This document shows, in pieces, positions 6,226-49,599 of a DNA stretch of 64,000 bases (the first letter of the stretch is position 1; every line of letters starts with the position of its first letter). The stretch spans positions 46,669 through 110,668 of the forward strand of contig JAPOVF010000399.1 of NCBI GenBank assembly GCA_026708285.1. The letters are read 5' to 3'. The position numbers were made by a program, and so were the translations under genes. This DNA is from Acidobacteriota bacterium (lineage in GTDB: Bacteria; Acidobacteriota; Thermoanaerobaculia; Multivoradales; Multivoraceae). The notes under the pieces are model-generated. The model did no database searches. It was not told the origin of the DNA and saw only the letters and a list, made by a program, of their open reading frames with translations.

Positions 6226-6884
6226 AGCGGCCCTTGCGGTACTGGTCGCGCTTGGGACTCCTCAAGCTGTGCCGCGACGGCGCGGACGTGCTGCTTGTCG
6301 CCGCCATCCTGGCGCTGTTCGTTCGCGCCTTTTTCGTCCAAGCCTACCGCATTCCCTCCGAATCGATGGAACCGACCCTGATGGTCGGTGATCATCTGCT
6401 GATCAACAAGTTCGTCTTCGGCGCCGGTGCCGGTCGCTGGGGACCTCTCGTGCCTCAACGCCCGGTGCGACCGGGCGACCTGGTCACCTTCCGTGGCATC
6501 GAGGAGCCCGCCCACGAGCTGCTCAAGCGCTGCGTGGCAACCGGCGGCACGGTGGTGGAGATCGATTCGAAGAGGCTCCGGGTCGACGGCCGCGAAGTCG
6601 ACGAGACGGCCTACGTCGTCCACTCGGACAGTCGGGTCTATCCCCGCTCGGAGTTCCTCCATGAGAGTTTCTGGCGCCGAGACGCCTACGGTCCCGAATC
6701 CGTGCCGGACGGGAGCCTCTTCTGTCTGGGCGACAACCGCGACATATCGCGCGACTCGCGCTTCTTCGGTCCGGTTGGAACCGAGCTGGTCCGCGGGCGG
6801 CCGTTCCTCGTCTACTGGTCGCGTGACAGGGAAGCGGGAAGATGGGCCGTCCGCTGGCGGCGCACCCTCCACGTTCCCCGCTGA
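6195..6884 (+). CDS. lepB: signal peptidase I (second tandem paralog)
   Basis: Motifs SESMEPTLMVGDH and GDNRDISRDSRFFGPV. Overlaps the upstream lepB by ~30 nt. Confidence 0.8.
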   Translation: MGPDLQGDQVERPLRYWSRLGLLKLCRDGADVLLVAAILALFVRAFFVQAYRIPSESMEPTLMVGDHLLINKFVFGAGAGRWGPLVPQRPVRPGDLVTFRGIEEPAHELLKRCVATGGTVVEIDSKRLRVDGREVDETAYVVHSDSRVYPRSEFLHESFWRRDAYGPESVPDGSLFCLGDNRDISRDSRFFGPVGTELVRGRPFLVYWSRDREAGRWAVRWRRTLHVPR

Positions 6885-13996: not shown

Positions 13997-14121
13997 TGCA
14001 CGGCCTCAGTCCGCGAACCGCCCAACTCTTCCATCTCCCAGTCGAGGGTATCTCTCCACAATCGGACGTTCTGGAGCTTTCGTCCGAAGCACGCAGCCCT
14101 TTCGCCCCTTGCATGAAAAAA

Positions 14122-14186
14122 GCTCGTGCTCGCTGCTTCGCAGCATCGCGCTCGATGCGGACCAGAAGGTCCGCGCATGTATGGTC
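14122..14186 (-). repeat. partial copy of the 3' hairpin module of the ~340-bp repeat family
   Basis: gctgcttcgcagcatcgcgctcg...gcggaccagaaggtccgcg is the reverse complement of the tail of copy A (23440-23500). Confidence 0.6.
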
Positions 14187-15700: not shown

Positions 15701-15794
15701 GAAACCCAGAACCCCCCTACCTGACAAACAGCGCGGGGCGCGCCCAAACGCCGACGACCTCCAGCCTGCCCGGGGCCGGAGGAGGGGCTCCCAG

Positions 15795-16085
15795 GGGGCT
15801 GTCGGCAAGCGACGCCCGACGCGACTTCATGAACCACCGCGGAACCGGAGCGCAGCCGACCGCAGCGAGCGTCCAACCTCCATTCATCCGGTAAACGCGA
15901 GCGGCCCCTGGGAGCCCCTCCTCCGGCTCCGGGCAGGCGCGTGCGCCCGACGCCCCCGCATGCACCACCGCCGAACCGGAGCGCAGCCGACCGCAGCGAG
16001 CGTCCAACCTCCATCCATCCGGTAAACGCGAGCGGCCCCTGGGACCCCCCTCCTTCGGCCCTGCCCAGGCGGGTGGGGCCCGACG
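15795..16085. repeat. tandem direct repeat, ~141-bp unit x ~2.1 with an inverted partial arm at 15763-15790
   Basis: The unit gaaccaccgcggaaccggagcgcagccgaccgcagcgagcgtccaacctccattcatccggtaaacgcgagcggcccctgggagcccctcctccggc starts at 15821 and again at 15962 with few mismatches. cctgcccggggccggaggaggggctccc at 15763 is the reverse complement of the unit end. Confidence 0.8.
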
Positions 16086-22226: not shown

Positions 22227-22520
22227 ATGAACATCCAGAAGCTGATGCGGCAAGCCCAGGAAATGCAGCAGCAGATGCAGCGTGATCTGGCGGCAGCCGA
22301 GTTCACCGCCAGCGTCGGCGGCGGCATGGTCGAGGTGCGAATGAACGGCGAGAAGGAGGTCCTGGGCGTTCACATCGATCCGGAAGTCCTGGACCCTGAG
22401 GATCCGGGCATGGTCCAGGACCTGGTGCAGGCCGCCGTGAACGAAGCCGGACGCAAGGTGAACGAGTACGTAGGCCAACGTCTCGGCGGCATGGCCGCCG
22501 GGATTCCCGGCCTCACCTGA
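22227..22520 (+). CDS. ybaB: nucleoid-associated protein YbaB/EbfC
   Basis: 97 aa (MNIQKLMRQAQEMQQQMQR...) in the typical dnaX-ybaB-recR arrangement. Confidence 0.85.
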   Translation: MNIQKLMRQAQEMQQQMQRDLAAAEFTASVGGGMVEVRMNGEKEVLGVHIDPEVLDPEDPGMVQDLVQAAVNEAGRKVNEYVGQRLGGMAAGIPGLT

Positions 22521-23107
22521 TGCCGGCCGACCCGCTCTCCAGCCTGGTCGAGGAACTCTCGCGCCTGCCGGGCATCGGCCCGAAGACCGCCCGCCGACTG
22601 GCGCACCATCTGCTCCGTGTCGACCGGAGCCGGGCGGAAGCGCTCGCCCAGGCGGTCATCGACGTCAAGGACCGCATGATCCACTGCTCCACCTGTCACC
22701 AGATCACCGCGGTGGATCCCTGCTCGATCTGCAGCGACCCGCAGCGCGACCGAACCAAGCTGTGCGTCGTCGAGGAGCCGTTCAACATCGAACCGATCGA
22801 GCGCACCGGTGAGTTCCACGGCCTGTACCACGCCCTTCTGGGCTCCCTTTCGCCCCAAAGAGGCGTAGGACCCGACGAGCTGACGGTCGCGTCCCTCCTG
22901 GAGCGCCTCGACGGCATCGAGGAGGCCATCTTGGCGATGAACCCGAACGTGGAGGGCGAAGCCACAGCCCTCTACCTGGCCAACCTCCTCGCCCGCCGCG
23001 GCGTCCGCGTCACGCGCCTCGCCTTCGGTCTCCCCGTCGGCGGCGACATCGACTACGCCGACCAGGTCACCCTGGCCCGGTCCCTGGCCGGCCGCCGCTC
23101 GTTGTAG
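22520..23107 (+). CDS. recR: recombination protein RecR
   Basis: HhH motif LPGIGPKTARRLAHHLL, zinc finger CSTCHQITAVDPCSIC and a Toprim domain. Confidence 0.9.
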   Translation: MPADPLSSLVEELSRLPGIGPKTARRLAHHLLRVDRSRAEALAQAVIDVKDRMIHCSTCHQITAVDPCSICSDPQRDRTKLCVVEEPFNIEPIERTGEFHGLYHALLGSLSPQRGVGPDELTVASLLERLDGIEEAILAMNPNVEGEATALYLANLLARRGVRVTRLAFGLPVGGDIDYADQVTLARSLAGRRSL

Positions 23108-23516: not shown

Positions 23517-24827
23517 TCAGACCTTCGACACCAACACAGACGCAGCCTGGATCAGCACGTCGGCCGCGTAGTCCAACTGGACTTCGGTGATAGCCAGCGG
23601 TGGCGCGATCTGCAGCACCGTGCCGGTTGCGCCGCCGCTCAGGGCGATCACGCCCCGTTCCAGGAGGTGCCGGCACAGGCCGGCCGCGCGCTCCCGGCTC
23701 TCGAGTTCCACGCCCCACAGCATCGCGGTGCCCCGGACGCCCACGACGCCGGGGCACTGCTTCAACGACTCGACGCGACGGCCGAAGCGGCTCCCGAACT
23801 CCCGGGCCCTCTGAATCAGGCGCTCACTCTCGATCACTTCAAGCGTCGCCAAAGCCGCGGCACAGGCAAGCGGATGCGCGACGAATGTGGCCGTGTGCCG
23901 GGCCTCGCCCTCCGTCTCCCAAGCGGCCATGACCTCCTTCTCACCCAGCACGGCTGCGATGGGAAGACCGCCGCCCAGGGCCTTGCCGCAGCAGATCAGA
24001 TCGGGCTCGATGCCCGCCTCCCCGCTCACGAACCACTCGCCGCAGCGGCCGAACGCGGTGAAGATCTCGTCAACCGCCAGGACCACGTCGTGTTCGCGAC
24101 ATGCCGAGGCCAGTCCGGCCAACCAGCCGCGAGGCGGCCATCGGGTTGCCTCGCGGCCGATCACCGGTTCGACCAGGCAGGTTCCGATGTCCGGCTGCCG
24201 GTCCAGCAATTGCCGCACCTCCTCAGGCTCGGCGCCATGGGGCAGACGGTGAACCAGGCTGTCCAGCGGCTCCGTGAAGGGCGTCCGAAAGGTCGGCCTC
24301 GAAGTGCCCTGGAGGGCGCCCAACGTCGTGCCGTGGTAGGCCGGCGTGAACGCGAGGACTCCAGGACGGCCGCTGTACAGGCGCCCTGTCTTGAGCGCGA
24401 TCTCGACCGCGTCGGCTCCCGAGGCGGCAAAGTAGACCCGCGGCTCGCGGAGCGGCGCCAGACGACCCAGACGCTCGCTCAGTTCAACGCGAGCAGGATG
24501 AGCGAATACGTCACCCAGTCCATGAAGAAGGCGATCGGCCTGCCGCTTGACCGCCGAAACCACGGCAGGATGCCGGTGGCCCACCGCGGCCACTCCGAAT
24601 CCAGCCGTCAGGTCGAGGAAGCGATTGCCGTCGATGTCCAGCACATTGCTGCCAAGAGCCTCCTCCCACAGCATCGCCGTGCTTCCGGCGACCAAGGTGT
24701 TGATCCCCGGCGCCTCCGCCCCTTCGAGCCGCCTAGCAGCCCGTCGTGCGCGCGGCCCCGGAAGCGAAGTTCGGATCTCCGGCAGCTGATCTCCGCGGAC
24801 GAGTCGGTGCGAACAAGGAGCAGCCAT
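23517..24827 (-). CDS. class III (omega-type) PLP-dependent aminotransferase
   Basis: 436 aa with a class III aminotransferase pattern (DEIFTAFGRCGEWF..., LICCGKALGGGLP). Substrate cannot be assigned. Confidence 0.7.
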   Translation of the reverse strand: MAAPCSHRLVRGDQLPEIRTSLPGPRARRAARRLEGAEAPGINTLVAGSTAMLWEEALGSNVLDIDGNRFLDLTAGFGVAAVGHRHPAVVSAVKRQADRLLHGLGDVFAHPARVELSERLGRLAPLREPRVYFAASGADAVEIALKTGRLYSGRPGVLAFTPAYHGTTLGALQGTSRPTFRTPFTEPLDSLVHRLPHGAEPEEVRQLLDRQPDIGTCLVEPVIGREATRWPPRGWLAGLASACREHDVVLAVDEIFTAFGRCGEWFVSGEAGIEPDLICCGKALGGGLPIAAVLGEKEVMAAWETEGEARHTATFVAHPLACAAALATLEVIESERLIQRAREFGSRFGRRVESLKQCPGVVGVRGTAMLWGVELESRERAAGLCRHLLERGVIALSGGATGTVLQIAPPLAITEVQLDYAADVLIQAASVLVSKV

Positions 24828-24880
24828 GCCGAAGGTCAGAGGCTAGCGCCCCTTGGCCTGGGCTTGCTACGCTGGAACCT

Positions 24881-24973
24881 GGCCCGCTACGGCCCGCGGC
24901 TGACCCCCGACGTAGGGCTGGAAGTAAGACACCCCCTCATCCGAGGCGGCTGTTGCGTCACCCGTAGCGGGCC
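24881..24973. repeat. 19-bp inverted repeat pair (CCGCGGGCCGTAGCGGGCC family) in the aminotransferase leader; third copy at 25586-25604
   Basis: ggcccgctacggcccgcgg at 24881 and ccgtagcgggcc at 24962 are mutual reverse complements. The full 19-mer recurs at 25586-25604 in inverse orientation. Confidence 0.7.
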
Positions 24974-25363
24974 ATCTGGGCAGTGCCGTCAGCAGTCCGC
25001 GGGAGTCAGCCGCGCACGGACCATAGTTGCGGCCGAGGCCACCGCCTATACCCATTTGCGGCCCTGCATTTGCACGTATGCGCTTGCAGGTGATCCCCTG
25101 GCTTAACGCCCGAGCTCGGGACATGACCCCCGCGCGGCCTTTCCTGGCGTCGACCGGGGCCAAAGGCGGAGCCGGGTGGCGCTCTCGTGGGGTAAGCCTC
25201 CTGCCCTAGCCCGCGCCTGGGAGGGACCGAACGCGCCTAGCAGCTAGCCGAAGGGCCCAGCCGTTCGCCGTCAACCGCAACGGACGAGCGGCGCGGAAGA
25301 CGTGCTCGACAACTGCGCCAAGGCGAAGGACAACCGCCGCCGCCTACGCCGAAGCGGGGCCAG

Positions 25364-25525
25364 TCAACGGAAGATCAACCAAAGTCCGAACAGCAACACG
25401 CTGTAGAACGCGATGTCGAACAGCGTTCCAGCAACCTTCCGTGCAACAGGTCCGGTCAGCCACGCCGGGAGCGTGACGCCTTCCGGATCACGGTAGCGAC
25501 GGCGAATGATGTCTCCTGTCGTCAT
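25364..25525 (-). CDS. hypothetical small membrane protein
   Basis: A ~53-aa ORF from an internal Met (MTTGDIIRRRYRDPEGVTLPAWLTGPVARKVAGTLFDIAFYSVLLFGLWLIFR) with a C-terminal TM helix. No family was recognised. Confidence 0.25.
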   Translation of the reverse strand: MTTGDIIRRRYRDPEGVTLPAWLTGPVARKVAGTLFDIAFYSVLLFGLWLIFR

Positions 25526-25735
25526 CAACATTGGTGCTCCAACGGCTCGGTGAAGGGAGCGCGAAAGGCCGACCTCGGGCGAGGTCGCGGGCCGTAGCGG
25601 GCCAAGTTCCACATTAGCAACCCCGCGCCATCTGTGTGCTAGAATCCTTACCGTCTTACTTCCAGTCTACGGTCGGGTCGTCGCGGATGAGCCGTCGACG
25701 GCGGGCTGTAGCACCCACTAAGGGGAGGCTACGAA

Positions 25736-26511
25736 TGAGGGAAGCTCTACGGGGCACGCTGCTGAGCGCGCTGTTCTTCGCCCTGCTGATCGGCGGCGCG
25801 CCGGGGATGGCGGCGGGAAAGCAGCTGCACTCGAAAGACGACGAGTTGATCCAGCCGATAGGGCCGTTCAACCCGATGCTGCTCGATGACGAACAGGGCG
25901 CAGCGTGGTTCGCGGATCTCATCCGACAGTCGGGCGGCCAGCTCAAAGACAAGGACTTCTACATCGACATTCCGGTCAAGACGACCCGGGAGCACCACGA
26001 CATGGTCGTCTACGGCATCCCCCCAACGGAGAGGGGCGAGGAAGAAGAAGACGGGCCCGCATCCGTGCGACAGGAAGCCGTAGGCGGCGAAACAGGGGTC
26101 ACCGTTGGCTACTACCGGTGCAACATCACGGCCCACAACCCGCACATGAGCCAGAACTTCTTCACCAGGGCCAAGACCGTGAAGGCGAAGGCCGAAGGCA
26201 ACTGCAACTACATCCCGGTCCGGATATCCCTGTCTCCGCCGCGGAGCCAGATGCGGTGGGAAATGTGGATGGCCCTCTACCACCGGACTCCTCCCTACGG
26301 CACAGTCGGCTACACGAAGCACCGCAGGATGGGCTGGTGGGCTCGGTGGTCGCCGCGGTCGGCTTTCGTCGACACCGGTGGCCTCTGCCGAAACGGGCTG
26401 TACATCAACAACGTGATTGTGATGTTCTTCGTGCCTTGGCCGTACTACACGTCGGCGAGCACTCCGCTCGTGGCGTACCGTGGCAAGTCCGCATGGGTCG
26501 AGAGCTGCTGA
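25736..26511 (+). CDS. secreted Cys-containing protein of unknown function (low-GC islet gene)
   Basis: From MREALRGTLLSALFFALLIGGAPGMAAGK, which is a signal peptide, ~258 aa with several Cys and Trp/Tyr-rich segments. It is visibly less GC-rich (e.g. third codon positions) than the flanking genes. No family was recognised. Confidence 0.5.
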
Positions 26512-26522
26512 ATGCTTTGAGG

Positions 26523-26580
26523 GCGCCTGAGCGTTGGGATAGTCCTACGGGGCTCCGGGTTCGATTCCCGGCAGGCGCCC
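26523..26580 (+). ncRNA. tRNA-like minihelix (acceptor stem + T-arm, no complete D/anticodon arms), 10 nt after the stop of the secreted-protein gene
   Basis: 5' GCGCCTG pairs with 3' CAGGCGC. It has a canonical T-arm CCGGGTTCGATTCCCGG, a short hairpin CGTTGGGATAGTCCTACG, a discriminator C, and CAC rather than an encoded CCA. Confidence 0.4.
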
Positions 26581-26891
26581 ACTCACCCCCACAGGAGAGA
26601 ACCAACGAGGAAGATGAGCCGGAAGATCAGCGGTGAGCCGCTGAGGCGGTTGTACAGGTCTAACGGCGGGGGTGCGGGGCGGCACTCTCGTAACGAGGTC
26701 GCTTGCTGCAAAGCGGACCAGCTACGGCTCTCCCTCTCAGAGAGCCCCGCCGCTCCGCCCAGAGATAGGGAGTCACTCCGGCACGCTCCCGCGATTTCGC
26801 CGGCGAGGTGGGCCCCTTTTGCCCCGCGGTCAGCGGCGATTCGGCGGCTGCCGGTCCGCTCAGCGCCTCTGTCTGGATCGTTGACCGGGAG

Positions 26892-27119
26892 CTAGCTCGA
26901 GGGAACTGGCCACGCGCCGATCACGGCACCGCCGGCGGCGATCGTGAACAGCAGGCAGCCGGCGTTGTTGAGGGCCGTGCGCATGTGCTTGGCGGTTTGC
27001 TGCAGGGCGACGATCTCGTCTCGTGCGGCGGGAGTGACCTCGCAGATGGTCCGGGCGGTCTCGGTGATCTCGGCGAGCACGCGGCGGTTCTCCCGGATCC
27101 GGTCGTCGGTGCTGGTCAT
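26892..27119 (-). CDS. hypothetical small protein
   Basis: ~75 aa from an internal Met (MTSTDDRIRENRRVLAEITETARTICEVTPAARDEIVALQQTAKHMRTALNNAGCLLFTIAAGGAVIGAWPVPSS), helical with a C-terminal hydrophobic segment. Confidence 0.25.
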   Translation of the reverse strand: MTSTDDRIRENRRVLAEITETARTICEVTPAARDEIVALQQTAKHMRTALNNAGCLLFTIAAGGAVIGAWPVPSS

Positions 27120-27270
27120 CGGGAGCGATCGAAGGATCGGTCGTCGCGAAGGCGCTCTAGCGTCCGCTGTGGCTACTGGGAAATCGGGACTAGGTTGGGG
27201 GACAGTCCTCCACGGTCTTTCCCCGCAAGTACCTACCTTCTCTACTACTTCGCGAGATTCCGGCCGGGAA

Positions 27271-27372
27271 GGAGTGAGCGCCACCCCCTTACATCTCCTC
27301 TCAAGCGCGAACGTCACCCTGGGAGCTGACCCCTCCGGCCCCGACTGGGCGGGTGCAGCCCGACGTTAAGCG
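27271..27372 (-). repeat. ~340-bp repeat family, truncated copy B (5' ~100 bp only)
   Basis: ggagtgagcgccaccccc...ctcaagcgcgaacgtcaccctgggagctgacccctccggccccgactgggcgggtgcagcc is the reverse complement of the 5' module of copies A and C. Confidence 0.75.
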
Positions 27373-28568
27373 GTCGCGATGCGGTCGCAGATGCGGTCGA
27401 GCGTCGACTCGTCGAGGTAGGGGTGCATGGGCAGGCTGACGACGCGGTCGGCCAGGCTCTCGCTGACGGGCAGCGATCCCGGACCGTGGCCATGCCGTTC
27501 GTACGCCGGCTGCAGGTGCATCGGGCAGGGGTAGTGGACCGCGGTCGGTATGCCTGCCCGTGCCAGGTGGCCGCGCAGGGCGTCCCGGGTCTCCGCCGAC
27601 GGCCTTCCGTCCGCGTCGTCCACCCGCAGCGTGTACTGGGCCCAACTGGACTCCACGTCGGGTTCGCAGACCGGCGCGGCGACGCGCCACGGCGTGCCCA
27701 TCGACGCCGACGCCTCGCCCAGCCTCCTCGTGTAGCCGGCGGCGACGGCGCGGCGGGCCGTCAGTTCCTGCTCGAAGATCGTCAGTTTCGCCAGCAGAAC
27801 GGCGGCCTGCAGGGTGTCCAGCCTGCCGTTCATCCCCAGCCGCACGATGTCGTAGCGGTCGGCGCTCTGGCCGTGCTCGCGCATCGAACGCACCACCTCC
27901 GCAGTGGCAGGTTCCGTGCAGAAGATCGCACCCGCGTCGCCGTAGGCGCCGAGCGGCTTGGCGGGGTAGAAGCTGGTCGTCGTCAGGGCGGCCAGCGATC
28001 CGACGGGCCTGCCGCCGCGACGGGCGCCGAAGCTCTGGGCGGCGTCCGAGACGACCCCCAGCCCCCTAGAAGCCGCCCAGTCGGCCAGCGGCTGCGGGGG
28101 CATCGGCTGGCCGAACAGGTCGACGGTGATCACCGCCCTGGGGACGGCGCCGCCGGTCCGCTCGAGCCTGTCGAACTCGCGCTCGAGGGAACCCATGTCG
28201 AGCAGGAAGTCGTCCTCCCGGACGTCCACGAACACTGGCACGGCACCCGCTAGCAGGACGACTTCCGCCGTCGCCGTGAACGTGAAGGACGGAACGAACA
28301 CCGCGTCGCGCCGCCCCTCGGTGCGGCCGACGCCCAGTGCGAGCAGGGCGATCAGCAGGGCGTCCGACCCGCTGGATACGGCGACCGCCGGGGCCCCGCC
28401 GAGCCTGCCGAGCTCCGCCTCCAGTTCCTCGACCTCGGGTCCCATCACGTAGCGGCCATGGTCGAGGACGGCCGCGATCCGCCGGTCGATCTCCGGCCGC
28501 AGCCGTCTCGACTGAGCAGCCAGGTCGACGAAGGGAATCGGCTGCCGTCGCTCCGTGACCGTCGTCAT
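27366..28568 (-). CDS. DegT/DnrJ/EryC1/StrS-family PLP-dependent sugar aminotransferase
   Basis: Family pattern GSDALLIALLALG, FVPSFTFTATAE, SFYPAKPLGAYGDAGAI. The start is set at the internal Met (MTTVTERRQPIPFVDL). Confidence 0.75.
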   Translation of the reverse strand: MTTVTERRQPIPFVDLAAQSRRLRPEIDRRIAAVLDHGRYVMGPEVEELEAELGRLGGAPAVAVSSGSDALLIALLALGVGRTEGRRDAVFVPSFTFTATAEVVLLAGAVPVFVDVREDDFLLDMGSLEREFDRLERTGGAVPRAVITVDLFGQPMPPQPLADWAASRGLGVVSDAAQSFGARRGGRPVGSLAALTTTSFYPAKPLGAYGDAGAIFCTEPATAEVVRSMREHGQSADRYDIVRLGMNGRLDTLQAAVLLAKLTIFEQELTARRAVAAGYTRRLGEASASMGTPWRVAAPVCEPDVESSWAQYTLRVDDADGRPSAETRDALRGHLARAGIPTAVHYPCPMHLQPAYERHGHGPGSLPVSESLADRVVSLPMHPYLDESTLDRICDRIATA

Positions 28569-47834: not shown

Positions 47835-48165
47835 GCACCCGCCCTTGGGTCCGGAGGGGTCAGCTCCCAGGGTGACGTGAGCGCTTGAGAGGAGATGTGA
47901 GGAGATGGCGCTCACTCCGCTTCACTCGCTCCGGTTGGTCGTCCGTTGCGTGGGGGGCGTCGGCCGTCGCTCGTTCAGAGGCACCTGGGAGCTGACCCCT
48001 CCGACCCCGACCGGGCTGGAGGTCGTTGCCGTGAGGCGAGGCACCGACCTGCAACCTCCGCAGCGGTCCCATGTCATCCGCATGTAGAGAAGTCCGCCAC
48101 ACCGGGGCCGATCTGTGGGTGCGCGGACCGTGGCGCGGACCTTCTGGTCCGCGTTTGCCGCATCC
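47835..48165 (+). repeat. ~340-bp structured intergenic repeat, copy C
   Basis: Near-identical to copy A over the 5' ~230 bp, including both 20-bp inverted-repeat arms. The 3' hairpin GCGGACCTTCTGGTCCGC is present. Confidence 0.85.
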
Positions 48166-48194: not shown

Positions 48195-49226
48195 TCAGAA
48201 CAGGGTGCCCCGGACTTGCAGGTCCAGGTGTTCGTACGCTCGCTTTGTCGCCACCCGGCCACGGCGGGTGCGCTGTAGGAATCCCTTCTGGACGAGGTAC
48301 GGCTCGTAGAAGTCCTCGATCGTTCCCTCGTCTTCCCCGACCGAGGCCGCGAGCGCCTTCAGGCCGGCCGGGCCGCCCCCGTACTGTTCGATCAGCAGTT
48401 TCATGATCCTGCGGTCGATCTTGTCCAGGCCCTGCTCGTCGACCTCCTGCTGAAGGAGAGCCTCGTTTGCGGTGTCGCGGTCGATCCGTCCGTCCGCTTC
48501 GATCTGCGCGTAGTCGCGCACCCGTCGCAGCAGCCGGTTCGCGATCCTGGGCGTACCGCGGCTGCGCCGCGCGATCTCGTCGGCGCCGCCCAGATCGACT
48601 GGCACCTCGAGCAGATCGGCGGAGCGCTGGATGATCACGCTGAGGACGTCGGGACCGTAGAAGTCGAGCCGGTGGACGATGCCGAAGCGCCCCTGCAGCG
48701 GCGGTGTGATCAGGCCGGCGCGGGTCGTGGCCCCGACCAGCGTGAAGCGTGGCAGGTCGATGCGCACCGTCCTGGCCATCGGTCCGGAGCCGATCACCAG
48801 GTCGAGCTGGAAGTCCTCCAGCGCAGGGTAGAGGATCTCCTCCACGGTCGGACCGAGACGGTGGATCTCGTCGATGAAGAGGACGTCCCCGGGCTCGAGG
48901 TTGGTCAGGATCGCTGCCAGGTCGCCCGCCCGCTCCAGGACCGGACCGGAAGTGGATCGCAGCGCCGAACCCATCTCCCTGGCGATGATGTGCGCGAGGG
49001 TCGTCTTGCCCAGCCCGGGGGGGCCGAACAGCAGCACGTGATCCAGAGCTTCGCCCCGCCGGCGCGCGGCCTGCATGTAGATGTCGAGCAGCTCGACGAT
49101 CTTCTCCTGGCCCAGATACTCGCTCAGCCGCTGCGGCCGAAGCGACGGTTCGAGACGGCGATCCTCCGCGTCCCCGACGGCTGAGAGAACGCTCTCTTCA
49201 CCGTCGGTGCCGCCGGTCCCGGCCAT
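48195..49226 (-). CDS. ruvB: Holliday junction branch migration helicase RuvB
   Basis: [15 protein letters not shown] and Walker [16 protein letters not shown]. Confidence 0.9.
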
Positions 49227-49261: not shown

Positions 49262-49599
49262 CTGCCCGGATTCCGCCTGCGGCGGATGCGGACCAAAAGG
49301 TCCGCGCACCCAGAGAGCGACCCCGGTGTGGCGGACTTCTCTACATGCGGATCACACGAGACCGCTACGGGCGTTGCAGGTCGGTGCCTCGCCGCACGGC
49401 AACGACGTCCAGCCCGTCTCGGGGCCGGAGGGGTCAGCTCCCAGGTGCCTCTGAACGAGCGACGGCCGGCGCCCCTCCACGCAGCCGACGACCAACCGGA
49501 GCAAGTGAAGCGGAGTGAGCGCCATCCCCTCACATCTCCTCTCAAGCGCTCACGTCACCCTGGGAGCTGACCCCTCCGGACCCAGGACGGGCGGGTGCG
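49262..49599 (-). repeat. ~340-bp structured intergenic repeat, copy D (inverted orientation)
   Basis: Its reverse complement matches copies A and C. It contains GCGGACCAAAAGGTCCGC hairpin variant and fills the ruvA-ruvB gap. Confidence 0.85.

What the first reader, a model, noticed from the sequence alone, without database searches (positions are those of the whole stretch)
24830..27370. ~2.5-kb low-GC islet between two aminotransferase genes and mutY, carrying a secreted Cys-containing protein and a tRNA-like element
The interval between the class III aminotransferase start and the DegT gene holds: a 19-bp repeat present 3 times (24881, 24962, 25586; two copies inverted, bracketing ~700 bp); a small membrane ORF; a signal-peptide protein gene (25736-26511) with visibly lower GC than its neighbours and no recognisable family; a tRNA-like minihelix directly after its stop; and a truncated copy of the 340-bp repeat. 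This pattern suggests a horizontally acquired cassette or decayed integrative element, though no integrase is present.
Basis: partly seen in the sequence, partly recalled or inferred. Interest (0 to 1): 0.6.

Follow-up and report, generated by a model that had tools for sequence, protein, structure and literature searches.

The report
Decayed mobilizable-plasmid remnant with secreted-protein cargo
The 2.4-kb stretch between two aminotransferase genes is the worn-down remnant of a small mobilizable plasmid-like element that landed in a recombination hot spot near the replication origin of a sponge-symbiont acidobacterium, leaving an intact gene for a secreted protein of unknown function and a truncated tRNA look-alike; this kind of remnant is common, though these details are not.

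Summary
In 17 related Acidobacteriota genomes the order dnaA-mutY-DegT-aminotransferase-recR is conserved, with 12-500 nt between DegT and the aminotransferase except where an IS element sits. None carries the islet genes there. The islet (about 24854-27187) shares four segments with a 10.25-kb circular element (L093) that encodes a MobQ-type relaxase, ParA, an RHH protein and a Xer-like tyrosine recombinase:
- the last 16 relaxase codons, 100% identical;
- the small gene that follows the relaxase (orf75);
- two partial, inverted copies of the element's promoter and 5'UTR cassette.

One cassette copy drives the secreted protein. The "19-bp repeat" is part of this cassette. The same element end (27187) is joined to three different flanks in three metagenomes.

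The secreted protein belongs to a rare, unannotated family with four conserved Cys and an AHNPH...VKAK motif. Its C-terminal beta-sandwich has no significant structural match. Its GC3 (0.84) equals the genome mean, so it is not compositionally foreign.

The minihelix is clearly tRNA-derived (acceptor stem plus T-arm, no anticodon arm). It is invariant in the three copies found, so whether it functions could not be tested.

This is an ordinary kind of feature with modest interest.

The parts
24854..24974 (+). Element-derived regulatory module, copy 1 (distal half). It holds module A (24854-24898), module B (24906-24930) and the third CCGTAGCGGG core (24962-24974). It abuts the native aminotransferase upstream sequence at about 24853.
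   Evidence: 80% identical over 111 nt to L093 9646-9752, which lies upstream of the recombinase gene. Homology to relatives' DegT-aminotransferase spacers resumes at 24851-24853.
24975..25363 (.). Unassigned, probably decayed DNA. No convincing ORF. L096 carries a 150-nt insertion at 25255.
   Evidence: No match in relatives, in L093 or in PLSDB. No protein remnant was detected. A GC3-periodic stretch at 25280-25430 is unexplained.
25364..25531 (-). orf55, a 55-aa ORF with a C-terminal hydrophobic segment. Coding status is uncertain.
   Evidence: Called in public assemblies. GC3 is only 0.68. One non-synonymous difference against L096. No family hit.
25532..25577 (-). 46-nt fragment of a class III aminotransferase gene (residues about 177-191, RSAFRAPFTEPLEHQ). 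It marks an old breakpoint.
   Evidence: 91% identical to the L013 aminotransferase gene, E = 8.5e-12. 87% at protein level to L013. By hand count on the sequence it is only about 74% identical to the window's own gene.
25586..25734 (+). Element-derived regulatory module, copy 2 (proximal half). It holds module A' (25586-25630), an extended -10 TGcTAGAAT (25637-25645), module B' (25653-25677) and a 5'UTR whose hairpin covers the Shine-Dalgarno sequence (25678-25734).
   Evidence: 80-85% identical to L093 9481-9698 (reverse) and 6492-6601, which are the upstream regions of two other secreted-protein genes. Consensus fold. The stringent sigma-70 consensus scan found no promoter here, so the -10 reading is by eye.
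25735..26511 (+). sec258, a 258-aa secreted protein. It has an N-terminal signal peptide, a low-confidence linker, and a C-terminal beta-sandwich domain with 4 conserved Cys and an AHNPH...VKAK...GTQV...C.NG.Y motif.
   Evidence: alignment A1; pLDDT about 90 over most of residues 121-258. Searches gave no significant structural or family match. GC3 is 0.842. No indels in the three versions found, and all amino-acid differences lie within residues 1-71.
26521..26581 (+). tRNA-like minihelix. The acceptor-type stem pairs 26521-26529 with 26572-26580. A D-loop-like single strand contains GGG. A hairpin runs 26541-26554 with a UACG loop. The T-arm is 26555-26571. There is no anticodon arm.
   Evidence: Its 3' 21 nt are identical to genuine tRNA-Gly and tRNA-Arg genes of unrelated organisms. 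It is identical in L096 and L097.
26583..26891 (.). Spacer between the minihelix and orf75. 26583-26805 is conserved without indels in L096 and L097. Strain-specific indels lie beyond that point.
   Evidence: No RNA family and no convincing ORF.
26892..27119 (-). orf75, a truncated copy of the small tail-anchored protein gene that follows the relaxase gene on the donor element.
   Evidence: 79% identical at protein level to L093 orf80. Homologues P0056-P0061 include a paralogue in the same MAG. P0057 and P0059 sit with a 4-nt overlap behind MobA_MobL genes. The C-terminus is altered by a 242-nt deletion relative to L097.
27120..27166 (-). Last 16 codons of a MobA/MobL (MobQ-type) relaxase gene; the rest is deleted.
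   Evidence: 47 nt 100% identical to L093 5954-6000. tblastn of MobA residues 330-345 gives 100%. The L093 relaxase scores 3.2e-65 against Pfam MobA_MobL and is 47-50% identical to annotated MobQ relaxases.
27167..27187 (-). Common end of the mobile segment (GATTTCCCAGTAGCC...), joined to three different flanks in three assemblies.
   Evidence: The window has 83 unknown nt plus the truncated repeat. L096 has the 21-nt tandem-repeat part of the repeat next to DegT. L097 has the 3' end of an unrelated gene.
27188..27270 (.). 83 nt of unknown origin between the element end and the truncated repeat.
   Evidence: No match in any locus held. Absent from L096.
27271..27365 (-). Truncated copy (first about 95 nt) of the roughly 310-nt intergenic repeat. 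It is orthologous to the full copy that relatives carry right after DegT.
   Evidence: L006 11279-11381 corresponds to window 27373-27271; the homology ends inside the repeat.

Best explanation
The islet is what is left of a roughly 10-kb mobilizable plasmid-like or integrative element. That element carries a MobQ-type relaxase, ParA, an RHH protein and a Xer-like tyrosine recombinase, and circulates in sponge-associated Acidobacteriota. It became inserted between DegT and the class III aminotransferase. This is a repeat-flanked hot spot next to oriC that in relatives also takes IS elements and flips the aminotransferase gene.

Shown here:
- The insertion interrupted the intergenic repeat copy behind DegT.
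- The backbone is gone: recombinase, ParA, the 551-aa protein, and the relaxase except for its last 16 codons.
- What survives is the small post-relaxase gene (itself truncated), one cargo gene (sec258) with the element's own promoter/5'UTR cassette, a tRNA-derived minihelix directly behind it, a rearranged second partial copy of the regulatory region that now lies in front of the aminotransferase gene, and a 46-nt aminotransferase fragment from an earlier breakpoint.

Inferred function:
- sec258 is the selected part. It is transcribed from the extended -10 promoter at 25637-25645, and translation is probably tuned by the hairpin over the Shine-Dalgarno sequence.
- The protein is exported by its Sec-type signal peptide and folds outside the cytoplasm into a disulfide-stabilised beta-sandwich. 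It is most likely a binding or host- or competitor-interaction protein rather than a housekeeping enzyme.
- The minihelix is most likely a degenerate tRNA gene or tRNA-associated recombination relic that came with the cargo. If transcribed with sec258, it would act as a stable 3' structure or an RNase P/RNase Z processing site defining the mRNA 3' end.
For: Insertion. 17 related genomes keep dnaA-mutY-DegT-aminotransferase-recR and have no islet genes there. The homology breakpoints are at 27270/27271 and about 24853.

Donor.
- orf75 homologues lie behind MobA_MobL genes on L093/L094 and on L095. L095 is a contig from the same metagenome assembly, and its protein is deposited under the same MAG locus-tag prefix.
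- L093 repeats itself after 10,250 bp, so it is circular or tandem. Its GC is 68.2%, the same as the host.
- Four islet segments match L093 at 80-100% identity. 16 of 16 relaxase residues are identical.
- Pfam identifies the recombinase and relaxase, and the relaxase is 47-50% identical to MobQ relaxases.

Discrete mobile end. The same terminus is joined to three different flanks.

Decay against retention. The three versions (window, L096, L097) differ by independent indels of 132-242 nt in and around orf75 and at 25255. The block 25255-26805, which holds the promoter, sec258 and the minihelix, has no indels and is 99% identical. All sec258 amino-acid differences lie in residues 1-71, outside the conserved domain.

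Hot spot. There are IS4-like and IS110 transposases at the same locus in L016 and L019. The aminotransferase is inverted in 6 of 17 relatives.

Cargo logic. The same 5'UTR and first signal-peptide codons precede two other small secreted Cys-containing proteins on L093.

sec258. It belongs to a real family with 4 conserved Cys, has a confident beta-sandwich model, and one homologue lies next to a DsbA gene.
Against: - No recombinase gene or remnant was found in the window.
- No att-type direct repeats or target duplication were found at the ends.
- The L093 recombinase is Xer-like and could be a plasmid resolvase rather than an integrase. The route of entry (site-specific, or homologous or illegitimate recombination at the repeat) is therefore open.
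- L093 itself carries neither sec258 nor the minihelix, so the actual donor variant has not been seen intact.
- GC3 gives no sign of foreign origin. That fits a donor native to the clade but does not independently support transfer.
- About 590 nt (24975-25565) and 83 nt (27188-27270) remain unexplained.
- No expression data exist, and the functions of sec258 and the minihelix are inference only.
- dN/dS rests on fewer than 10 differences.
Confidence: 0.8

Rival explanations
1. The region is ancestral to the clade and was deleted in the relatives. On this view it is not an insertion, and the plasmid similarities reflect the plasmid having picked up chromosomal DNA.
For: GC3 of sec258 and orf75 is native-like. 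The plasmid-like element has host-like GC. Plasmids do capture chromosomal segments.
Against: All 17 relatives that span the locus lack it, including the closest, which has 94% DegT identity. The islet interrupts a repeat copy that is intact in relatives. It contains the 3' end of a relaxase gene plus the gene that follows it, in the same 4-nt-overlap arrangement as on the element. The same end is found at a different flank in L097.
Confidence: 0.05
2. The left part (24854-25630) is a non-autonomous transposon (MITE-like) bounded by 45-nt terminal inverted repeats, independent of the rest.
For: There is a 45-nt, 84% inverted repeat bracketing 687 nt, one arm exactly at the insertion boundary. 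The locus attracts IS elements in relatives.
Against: Both arms correspond to a single-copy sequence in the donor element's promoter/operator region (L093 9646-9698), with the flanking modules collinear with that region. There is no target-site duplication, no other copy in the 64-kb window or in any relative locus, and the accompanying module B is permuted rather than mirrored.
Confidence: 0.05
3. The minihelix is a selected, functional RNA module of the cargo cassette. It would be a tRNA mimic cut by RNase P/Z to form the sec258 mRNA 3' end and release a small tRNA-like RNA, as MALAT1 does with mascRNA. It would not be a relic.
For: It is co-oriented with sec258 and begins 9 nt after the stop codon. 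It has 14 uninterrupted Watson-Crick pairs, a canonical T-loop, a GG-containing D-loop analogue and a UACG tetraloop. Its best Rfam match is the mascRNA model, E = 0.0023. It lies inside the indel-free 99% block retained in all three versions.
Against: The three copies are identical, so there is no covariation and no test of constraint: about 0.9 differences would be expected in 60 nt at the local divergence. No second example lies behind any other family member or cargo gene. The Rfam score of 29.9 is below the gathering score of 42.5. There is no encoded CCA in register. There are no expression data.
Confidence: 0.15
4. The islet is a prophage remnant and sec258 is a phage moron.
For: One distant family member (P0013) sits in a phage-like contig with a phage lysozyme and DUF1064. 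orf75 has a very weak match to an Rz-like spanin PHROG, E = 0.12.
Against: There are no PHROG hits for sec258 or orf55. There are no matches in 50,697 phage records or in IMG/VR scans. The backbone remnants are relaxase-associated, not phage.
Confidence: 0.03

Closest known systems
Genomic islets left by decayed integrative and mobilizable elements or integrated MobQ plasmids
   Same: It is lineage-specific and absent from the orthologous site in relatives. It carries truncated backbone genes (relaxase 3' end and its downstream gene) next to retained cargo. It sits at a repeat- and IS-rich hot spot. Different strains show different deletions.
   Different: No recombinase and no att repeats remain. 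The donor's recombinase is Xer-like. Codon usage is indistinguishable from the host. The donor regulatory region is present as two partial inverted copies, one of which now lies in front of a core gene.
tRNA-like structures and mimics: mascRNA/MALAT1 3' processing element (Rfam RF01684), the tmRNA tRNA-like domain, tRNA 3' fragments at island att sites
   Same: It has an acceptor stem coaxial with a canonical T-arm and no anticodon arm. It sits at the 3' end of a longer transcript unit, like mascRNA. Its 3' half is identical to real tRNA-Gly/Arg genes, as att-site fragments are.
   Different: It scores below the Rfam threshold, and mascRNA is a vertebrate family, so this is a structural resemblance only. 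Unlike att-site fragments it retains the 5' acceptor strand. Unlike tmRNA it has no G3-U70, no coding part, and is not detected by ARAGORN.
Integron-like or moron-like cargo cassettes on mobile elements
   Same: Several unrelated small secreted proteins on the donor share one conserved upstream module (promoter, 5'UTR, first signal-peptide codons). This suggests cargo exchange by recombination within that module.
   Different: There is no attC or attI site and no integron integrase. The shared module is 5' of the genes and includes coding sequence. Only three instances have been seen.
REP/MITE-like intergenic repeats flanking genes
   Same: The roughly 310-nt repeat has a 25-nt internal inverted repeat, is strictly intergenic, and occurs in inverted pairs around single genes (the aminotransferase in relatives, ruvB in the window).
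   Different: It is much longer than classical REPs. No transposase association or target duplication was examined. Here it is only the landing pad, not part of the inserted DNA.

Membership tests
Integrative/mobilizable element remnant (genomic islet) | Present in one lineage and absent from the orthologous locus of relatives | tested here: met
   17 related genomes span the locus and none has sec258, orf55 or orf75 there. Breakpoints are defined at 27270/27271 and about 24853.
Integrative/mobilizable element remnant (genomic islet) | Sequence homology to a bona fide mobile element backbone | tested here: met
   The relaxase 3' end is 100% identical over 47 nt and 16 aa. The orf75 segment is 91% identical at DNA level. 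The regulatory modules are 80-85% identical to the 10.25-kb element L093.
Integrative/mobilizable element remnant (genomic islet) | Integrase or recombinase gene within the island | tested here: not met
   tblastn of the L093 recombinase and all other L093 proteins against the window found only the relaxase tail and orf75.
Integrative/mobilizable element remnant (genomic islet) | Flanking direct repeats (attL/attR) or target-site duplication | tested here: inconclusive
   No direct repeat at the two boundaries appears in the repeat searches. The end at 27187 is shared by three contexts with no common flanking core. The other end is obscured by rearrangement.
Integrative/mobilizable element remnant (genomic islet) | Deviant base composition or codon usage | tested here: not met
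   GC3 is 0.842 for sec258 and 0.908 for orf75, against 0.834 +/- 0.043 for window genes. Total GC is only 3 points lower.
tRNA gene | Cloverleaf with D-arm, anticodon arm and T-arm, recognised by tRNA models | tested here: not met
   ARAGORN finds only the two tRNA-Ser genes. Rfam tRNA gives no hit, and tRNA-Sec gives E = 0.18 with large deletions. The element is 56-61 nt and has no anticodon arm.
mascRNA-menRNA (RF01684) | Score at or above the Rfam gathering threshold | tested here: not met
   29.9 bits against a gathering score of 42.5, E = 0.0023 in a 2.8-kb search. This is a structural resemblance only.
tmRNA / two-piece tmRNA | tRNA-Ala-like domain plus tag reading frame | tested here: not met
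   There is no ARAGORN tmRNA call and no Rfam tmRNA hit. The sequence shows G3-C, not G3-U.
MITE/IS element (for 24854-25630) | Terminal inverted repeats plus target-site duplication and multiple genomic copies | tested here: not met
   The inverted repeat is present. Both arms map to one single-copy donor sequence. There are no other copies in the window or in relatives, and no duplication is seen.
Any curated protein family for sec258 | Significant match to Pfam, NCBIfam, PHROG, PADLOC or PDB sequences or folds | tested here: not met
MobQ relaxase gene | N-terminal relaxase domain (MobA_MobL) | tested here: not met
   Only residues 330-345 of 345 remain, so this is a remnant and not a gene.

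The most novel reading that the evidence does not exclude
On small MobQ plasmids of sponge-symbiont Acidobacteriota, a conserved module swaps genes for small secreted, disulfide-bonded proteins in and out. The module comprises a promoter, an operator, a 5'UTR with a hairpin over the Shine-Dalgarno sequence, and the first signal-peptide codons. The tRNA-like minihelix behind sec258 would be a functional part of such a cassette: an RNase P/Z-processed 3' end, or a recombination or attachment site that mimics a tRNA. The chromosome has domesticated one such cassette.
Probability: 0.12. Interest if true: 0.65.

Novelty: new member of a known kind. Interest (0 to 1): 0.35.

Why it matters
- It shows how a sponge symbiont's chromosome acquires secreted-protein genes. 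A small mobilizable element lands in a repeat-flanked hot spot beside oriC, its backbone erodes, and one cargo gene with its own expression signals is kept.
- It identifies an unannotated family of secreted, four-cysteine beta-sandwich proteins, found so far only in unannotated metagenome assemblies and uncultured genomes. It also identifies a circulating plasmid type that carries several such proteins behind one shared 5' module. Both are candidates for symbiont-host or symbiont-competitor interaction studies.
- The tRNA-like minihelix would be of wider interest only if shown to be processed or used as a recombination site.
- Otherwise the finding is a well-documented example of an ordinary process.

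Tried and rejected
- Treating the inverted 19/45-nt repeats as transposon ends. Rejected because both arms map to one single-copy promoter/operator region of the donor.
- Reading the left part as a decayed second aminotransferase copy. Only a 46-nt (15-aa) fragment exists.
- Looking for remnants of sec258-like or donor proteins in 24975-25585. Nothing convincing.
- Phage origin. No PHROG, INPHARED or IMG/VR matches.
- Known plasmid origin. The islet and sec258 have no PLSDB match.
- Defence system. No PADLOC hits.
- Finding the parent tRNA or further minihelix copies. The metagenome scan with the 3' half returned only unrelated tRNA-Gly/Arg genes and att-type 3' fragments. There was no minihelix near other family members or in relatives.
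- A viral-contig search with the family alignment failed for lack of a conserved stretch.
- Two literature searches gave nothing specific.
- Consensus sigma-70 promoter scan. No hit at stringent settings, so the extended -10 reading is by eye.


Full report
**Setting.** The window is high-GC (68.3%). It holds dnaX, ybaB, recR (22520-23107), a class III aminotransferase (AT3, 23517-24827, minus strand), DegT (27366-28568, minus), mutY and dnaA (from 30042), so this is the neighbourhood of the replication origin. The secreted protein is deposited as a hypothetical protein of an Acidobacteria MAG (locus tag OXG74_21515). Near-identical contigs occur in several metagenome assemblies.

**Observation.**
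The gene starts at 25735, not 25736.
- The repeat of about 19 bp is the core of a longer imperfect inverted duplication.
- The minihelix is a genuine tRNA-type structure. It has a 9-bp acceptor-type stem, a T-arm with the canonical TTCGATT loop, a 5-bp hairpin with a UACG loop, and a GG-containing single strand where the D-arm would be. It has no anticodon arm.
- A simple scan for a T-arm followed directly by a 7-bp acceptor stem, run over about 900 kb of window and loci, returned the annotated tRNAs of these stretches, this element, and three other matches: two chance hits (L030, L041) and one alternative register inside a tRNA-like match in L013. Chance is therefore excluded.
- 'Low GC' is true but mild: 65.4% for the islet and 63.1% for the gene. 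GC3 of the gene (0.842) equals the mean of the window's genes (0.834 +/- 0.043). The deficit lies in codon positions 1 and 2.

**Synteny.**
- A scan of one genome per species with DegT returned 18 related Acidobacteriota loci, labelled Candidatus Multivorans, Thermoanaerobaculia, Vicinamibacteraceae and Holophagales.
- In the 17 that span the region, the order dnaA-mutY-DegT-AT3-recR is kept. The DegT-AT3 gap is 12-500 nt, or 2.2 kb in L016, where an IS4-like DDE transposase is inserted. No locus contains sec258, orf55 or orf75.
- L019 has an IS110 transposase between AT3 and recR.
- Homology between the window and its closest relatives stops at 27271, inside the repeat copy that follows DegT. 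It resumes at about 24853, 26 nt upstream of the AT3 start.
- The islet is therefore a lineage-specific insertion of about 2.4 kb that interrupted and partly replaced an intergenic repeat.

**Origin.**
- orf75 (26892-27119, minus; GC3 0.908) has homologues. Two of them (P0057 and P0059, 88% and 67% identical) lie with a 4-nt overlap behind MobA_MobL relaxase genes. P0059 is deposited under the same MAG locus-tag prefix (OXG74) as the window's protein, and its contig comes from the same metagenome assembly.
- The contig L093 repeats itself after 10,250 bp, so it is circular or tandem. Its GC is 68.2%. It encodes a tyrosine recombinase with SAM-like N-terminal domains, a 169-aa protein, ParA, an RHH protein, a 551-aa protein, the relaxase (47-50% identical to annotated MobQ relaxases), the orf75 homologue, and several small proteins with signal peptides and cysteines.
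- Four islet segments match it:
  - 27166-26924: relaxase tail plus orf75, 91% overall, with the 47 nt of relaxase tail 100% identical and 16 of 16 residues matching;
  - 25636-25742: 84% to the upstream region of a 96-aa cargo gene;
  - 25781-25568: 80% to the upstream region and first codons of a 171-aa cargo gene;
  - 24865-24974: 80% to the adjoining stretch upstream of the recombinase gene.
- In L093 the regulatory region is a single collinear unit. Its order is: CCCGCTACGGG core, module B, module A, -10 region, module B', about 85 nt of 5'UTR, ATG.
- In the window its distal half (core, B, A) lies inverted next to AT3. Its proximal half (A', -10, B', UTR) drives sec258. The 45-nt module A is present in both halves. 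It also rules out the transposon-end reading.
- A 46-nt AT3 fragment (25532-25577) lies beside A'. It is closer to the AT3 allele of relative L013 (91%) than to the window's own gene (about 74% by hand count). It records an earlier breakpoint or an earlier host.

**Mobility and decay.**
- Two further versions exist in other samples.
- L096 has the islet at the same locus. It lacks 27207-27343 and 26806-26937, and has 150 extra nt at 25255.
- L097 has 242 extra nt at 26923, which gives a full-length 82-aa orf75 homologue. Its element end is joined to the 3' end of an unrelated gene.
- All three share exactly the same end, GATTTCCCAGTAGCC (window 27187 downward), and the same truncation point in the relaxase.
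- In L096 the central block 25255-27082 is 98.6-99% identical to the window. The outer islet parts and chromosomal flanks are 89-94% identical. This suggests the cargo block has been exchanged recently.
- The indels all fall outside 25255-26805. That block, with promoter, sec258 and minihelix, has no indels.
- sec258 differs by 2-5 amino acids, all within residues 1-71. This fits selective retention of the cargo while the backbone erodes. The numbers are too small for a formal test.

**The secreted protein.**
- A word-indexed search of 5.8 billion clusters found only the protein itself.
- An exhaustive phmmer search of 1.84 billion representatives found 38 relatives at 29-42% identity (one further short N-terminal match excluded).
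- An alignment of 36 members shows an N-terminal signal peptide and a variable linker. The conserved C-terminal domain has four near-invariant cysteines and the motifs C..AHNPH.G, VKAK..G.C, W.L.M.L, H.R.G....W, GTQV....C.NG.Y, and a C-terminal V..C.
- No member has a curated domain, and no PDB sequence matches the profile.
- The AlphaFold model is confident for most of residues 121-258 (pLDDT about 90, all-beta).
- Foldseek found only non-significant generic beta-sandwich matches in PDB and BFVD.
- Family members sit in varied accessory contexts: next to DsbA; between pnp and recN; in a small operon of unknown proteins; in a phage-like contig; in a region with toxin-antitoxin genes and a patatin gene.
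- The most defensible reading is an exported, disulfide-stabilised binding or interaction protein carried as accessory cargo. Its biochemical function is unknown.

**The minihelix.**
- Its 3' 21 nt (T-loop plus CAGGCGC) are identical to real tRNA-Gly and tRNA-Arg genes from unrelated metagenomes, and to several tRNA 3' fragments of the kind left at island borders. So it is tRNA-derived, and the 7-bp register GCGCCUG/CAGGCGC is the natural one.
- Unlike att fragments it retains the 5' strand. It looks like a tRNA that lost the 3' half of the D-arm and the anticodon arm.
- It is identical in the window, L096 and L097. It is absent from L093, from relatives and from the neighbourhood of other family members. 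Neither covariation nor recurrence can be used.
- I rate 'relic that travelled with the cargo, possibly serving as a stable 3' structure' above 'dedicated processed RNA module'. The latter is not excluded.

**Mechanistic summary.**
- Shown: insertion at a hot spot; donor type; erosion of the backbone; retention of one cargo gene with donor-derived expression signals; a discrete shared element end.
- Inferred: the route of entry. No recombinase or att repeats are left, and the donor recombinase is Xer-like.
- Inferred: the promoter (extended -10 TGcTAGAAT, 25637-25645).
- Inferred: the regulatory role of the repeated CCGTAGCGGG cores as operators and of the hairpin over the Shine-Dalgarno sequence.
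- Inferred: Sec export and disulfide bonding of sec258, and any role of the minihelix.

**Verdict.** This is a new member of a known kind, a decayed mobile-element islet. It has three mildly unusual details: an unannotated secreted-protein family, a shared 5' cargo module, and a tRNA-derived minihelix. Interest is 0.35.

Noticed in passing
L010 11263-12527 against L012 11213-12477; also L009, L011, L015, L016, L022: The class III aminotransferase gene is inverted as a single gene between close relatives. The gene is 94.7% identical in reverse orientation while both flanks are collinear at about 96.5%. 6 of 17 related species carry the flipped state. In L006, L009 and L013 the gene is bracketed by inverted copies of the roughly 310-nt repeat, which could mediate the flip.
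   Followed up: partly
window 47835-48129 (+) and 49287-49598 (-): Two full copies of the same roughly 310-nt repeat, in inverted orientation, bracket ruvB (48195-49226). This is the same 'one housekeeping gene between inverted repeats' layout seen around the aminotransferase in relatives.
   Followed up: partly
L016 11503-13287; L019 12867-14138: An IS4-like DDE transposase lies between DegT and the aminotransferase in L016. An IS110-family transposase lies between the aminotransferase and recR in L019. The locus is an insertion hot spot across species.
   Followed up: yes
window 25653-25734; L093 6515-6593 and 9528-9610: A 5'UTR of about 85 nt is conserved upstream of three different secreted-protein genes. 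It has a predicted hairpin (GTAGC-ACCC...GGGG-AG-GCTAC) that covers the Shine-Dalgarno sequence. It may be a translational control element. Only three copies are known, so there is almost no covariation.
   Followed up: partly
L093 6594-6884, 7035-7277, 9012-9527: The 10.25-kb MobQ element carries at least three small proteins with signal peptides and several cysteines (96, 80 and 171 aa). None has a family assignment. The 171-aa protein shares its first ~40 residues (about 42% identity; the first ~15 nearly identical) with sec258, because the shared 5' module extends into the coding region.
   Followed up: partly
L096 against window 24592-27435: Identity is mosaic. The central islet block 25255-27082 is 98.6-99% identical. 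The outer islet parts and the DegT and aminotransferase flanks are only 89-94% identical. This suggests recent exchange of the cargo block between diverged hosts.
   Followed up: partly
window 25280-25430: There is strong third-position GC periodicity (0.82 against 0.52-0.54) in a plus-strand frame ending at TAG 25404. It overlaps orf55 on the other strand. It may be the tail of a lost gene. No homologue was found.
   Followed up: partly
window 27188-27270: 83 nt between the mobile segment's end and the truncated repeat have no match in any locus held and are absent from L096.
   Followed up: partly
L013 11200-11340; also L009, L022 and L096 76-110: A tandem array of a 21-nt unit (GCACCCGCCTGGCGTTGCGCT) lies directly after DegT, at the start of the repeat copy. 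Copy number varies between species.
   Followed up: no
window 15729-16049 and 14110-14177: Further diverged or partial relatives of the roughly 310-nt repeat are present, including a 131-nt tandem duplication (15813-15918 and 15944-16049).
   Followed up: no
L003 and L005 contig ends (window 26575 and 26518): Two independent assemblies of the same population break inside or just before the minihelix. This could reflect strain heterogeneity or coverage. It was not resolved.
   Followed up: no
L097 1883-1885, aligned with window 25735-25737: The sec258 start codon is ACG in L097. An in-frame ATG 16 codons upstream (window 25687) would add an Arg-rich N-terminus (MSRRRRAV...). The true start, or the functionality of that allele, is therefore uncertain.
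   Followed up: no
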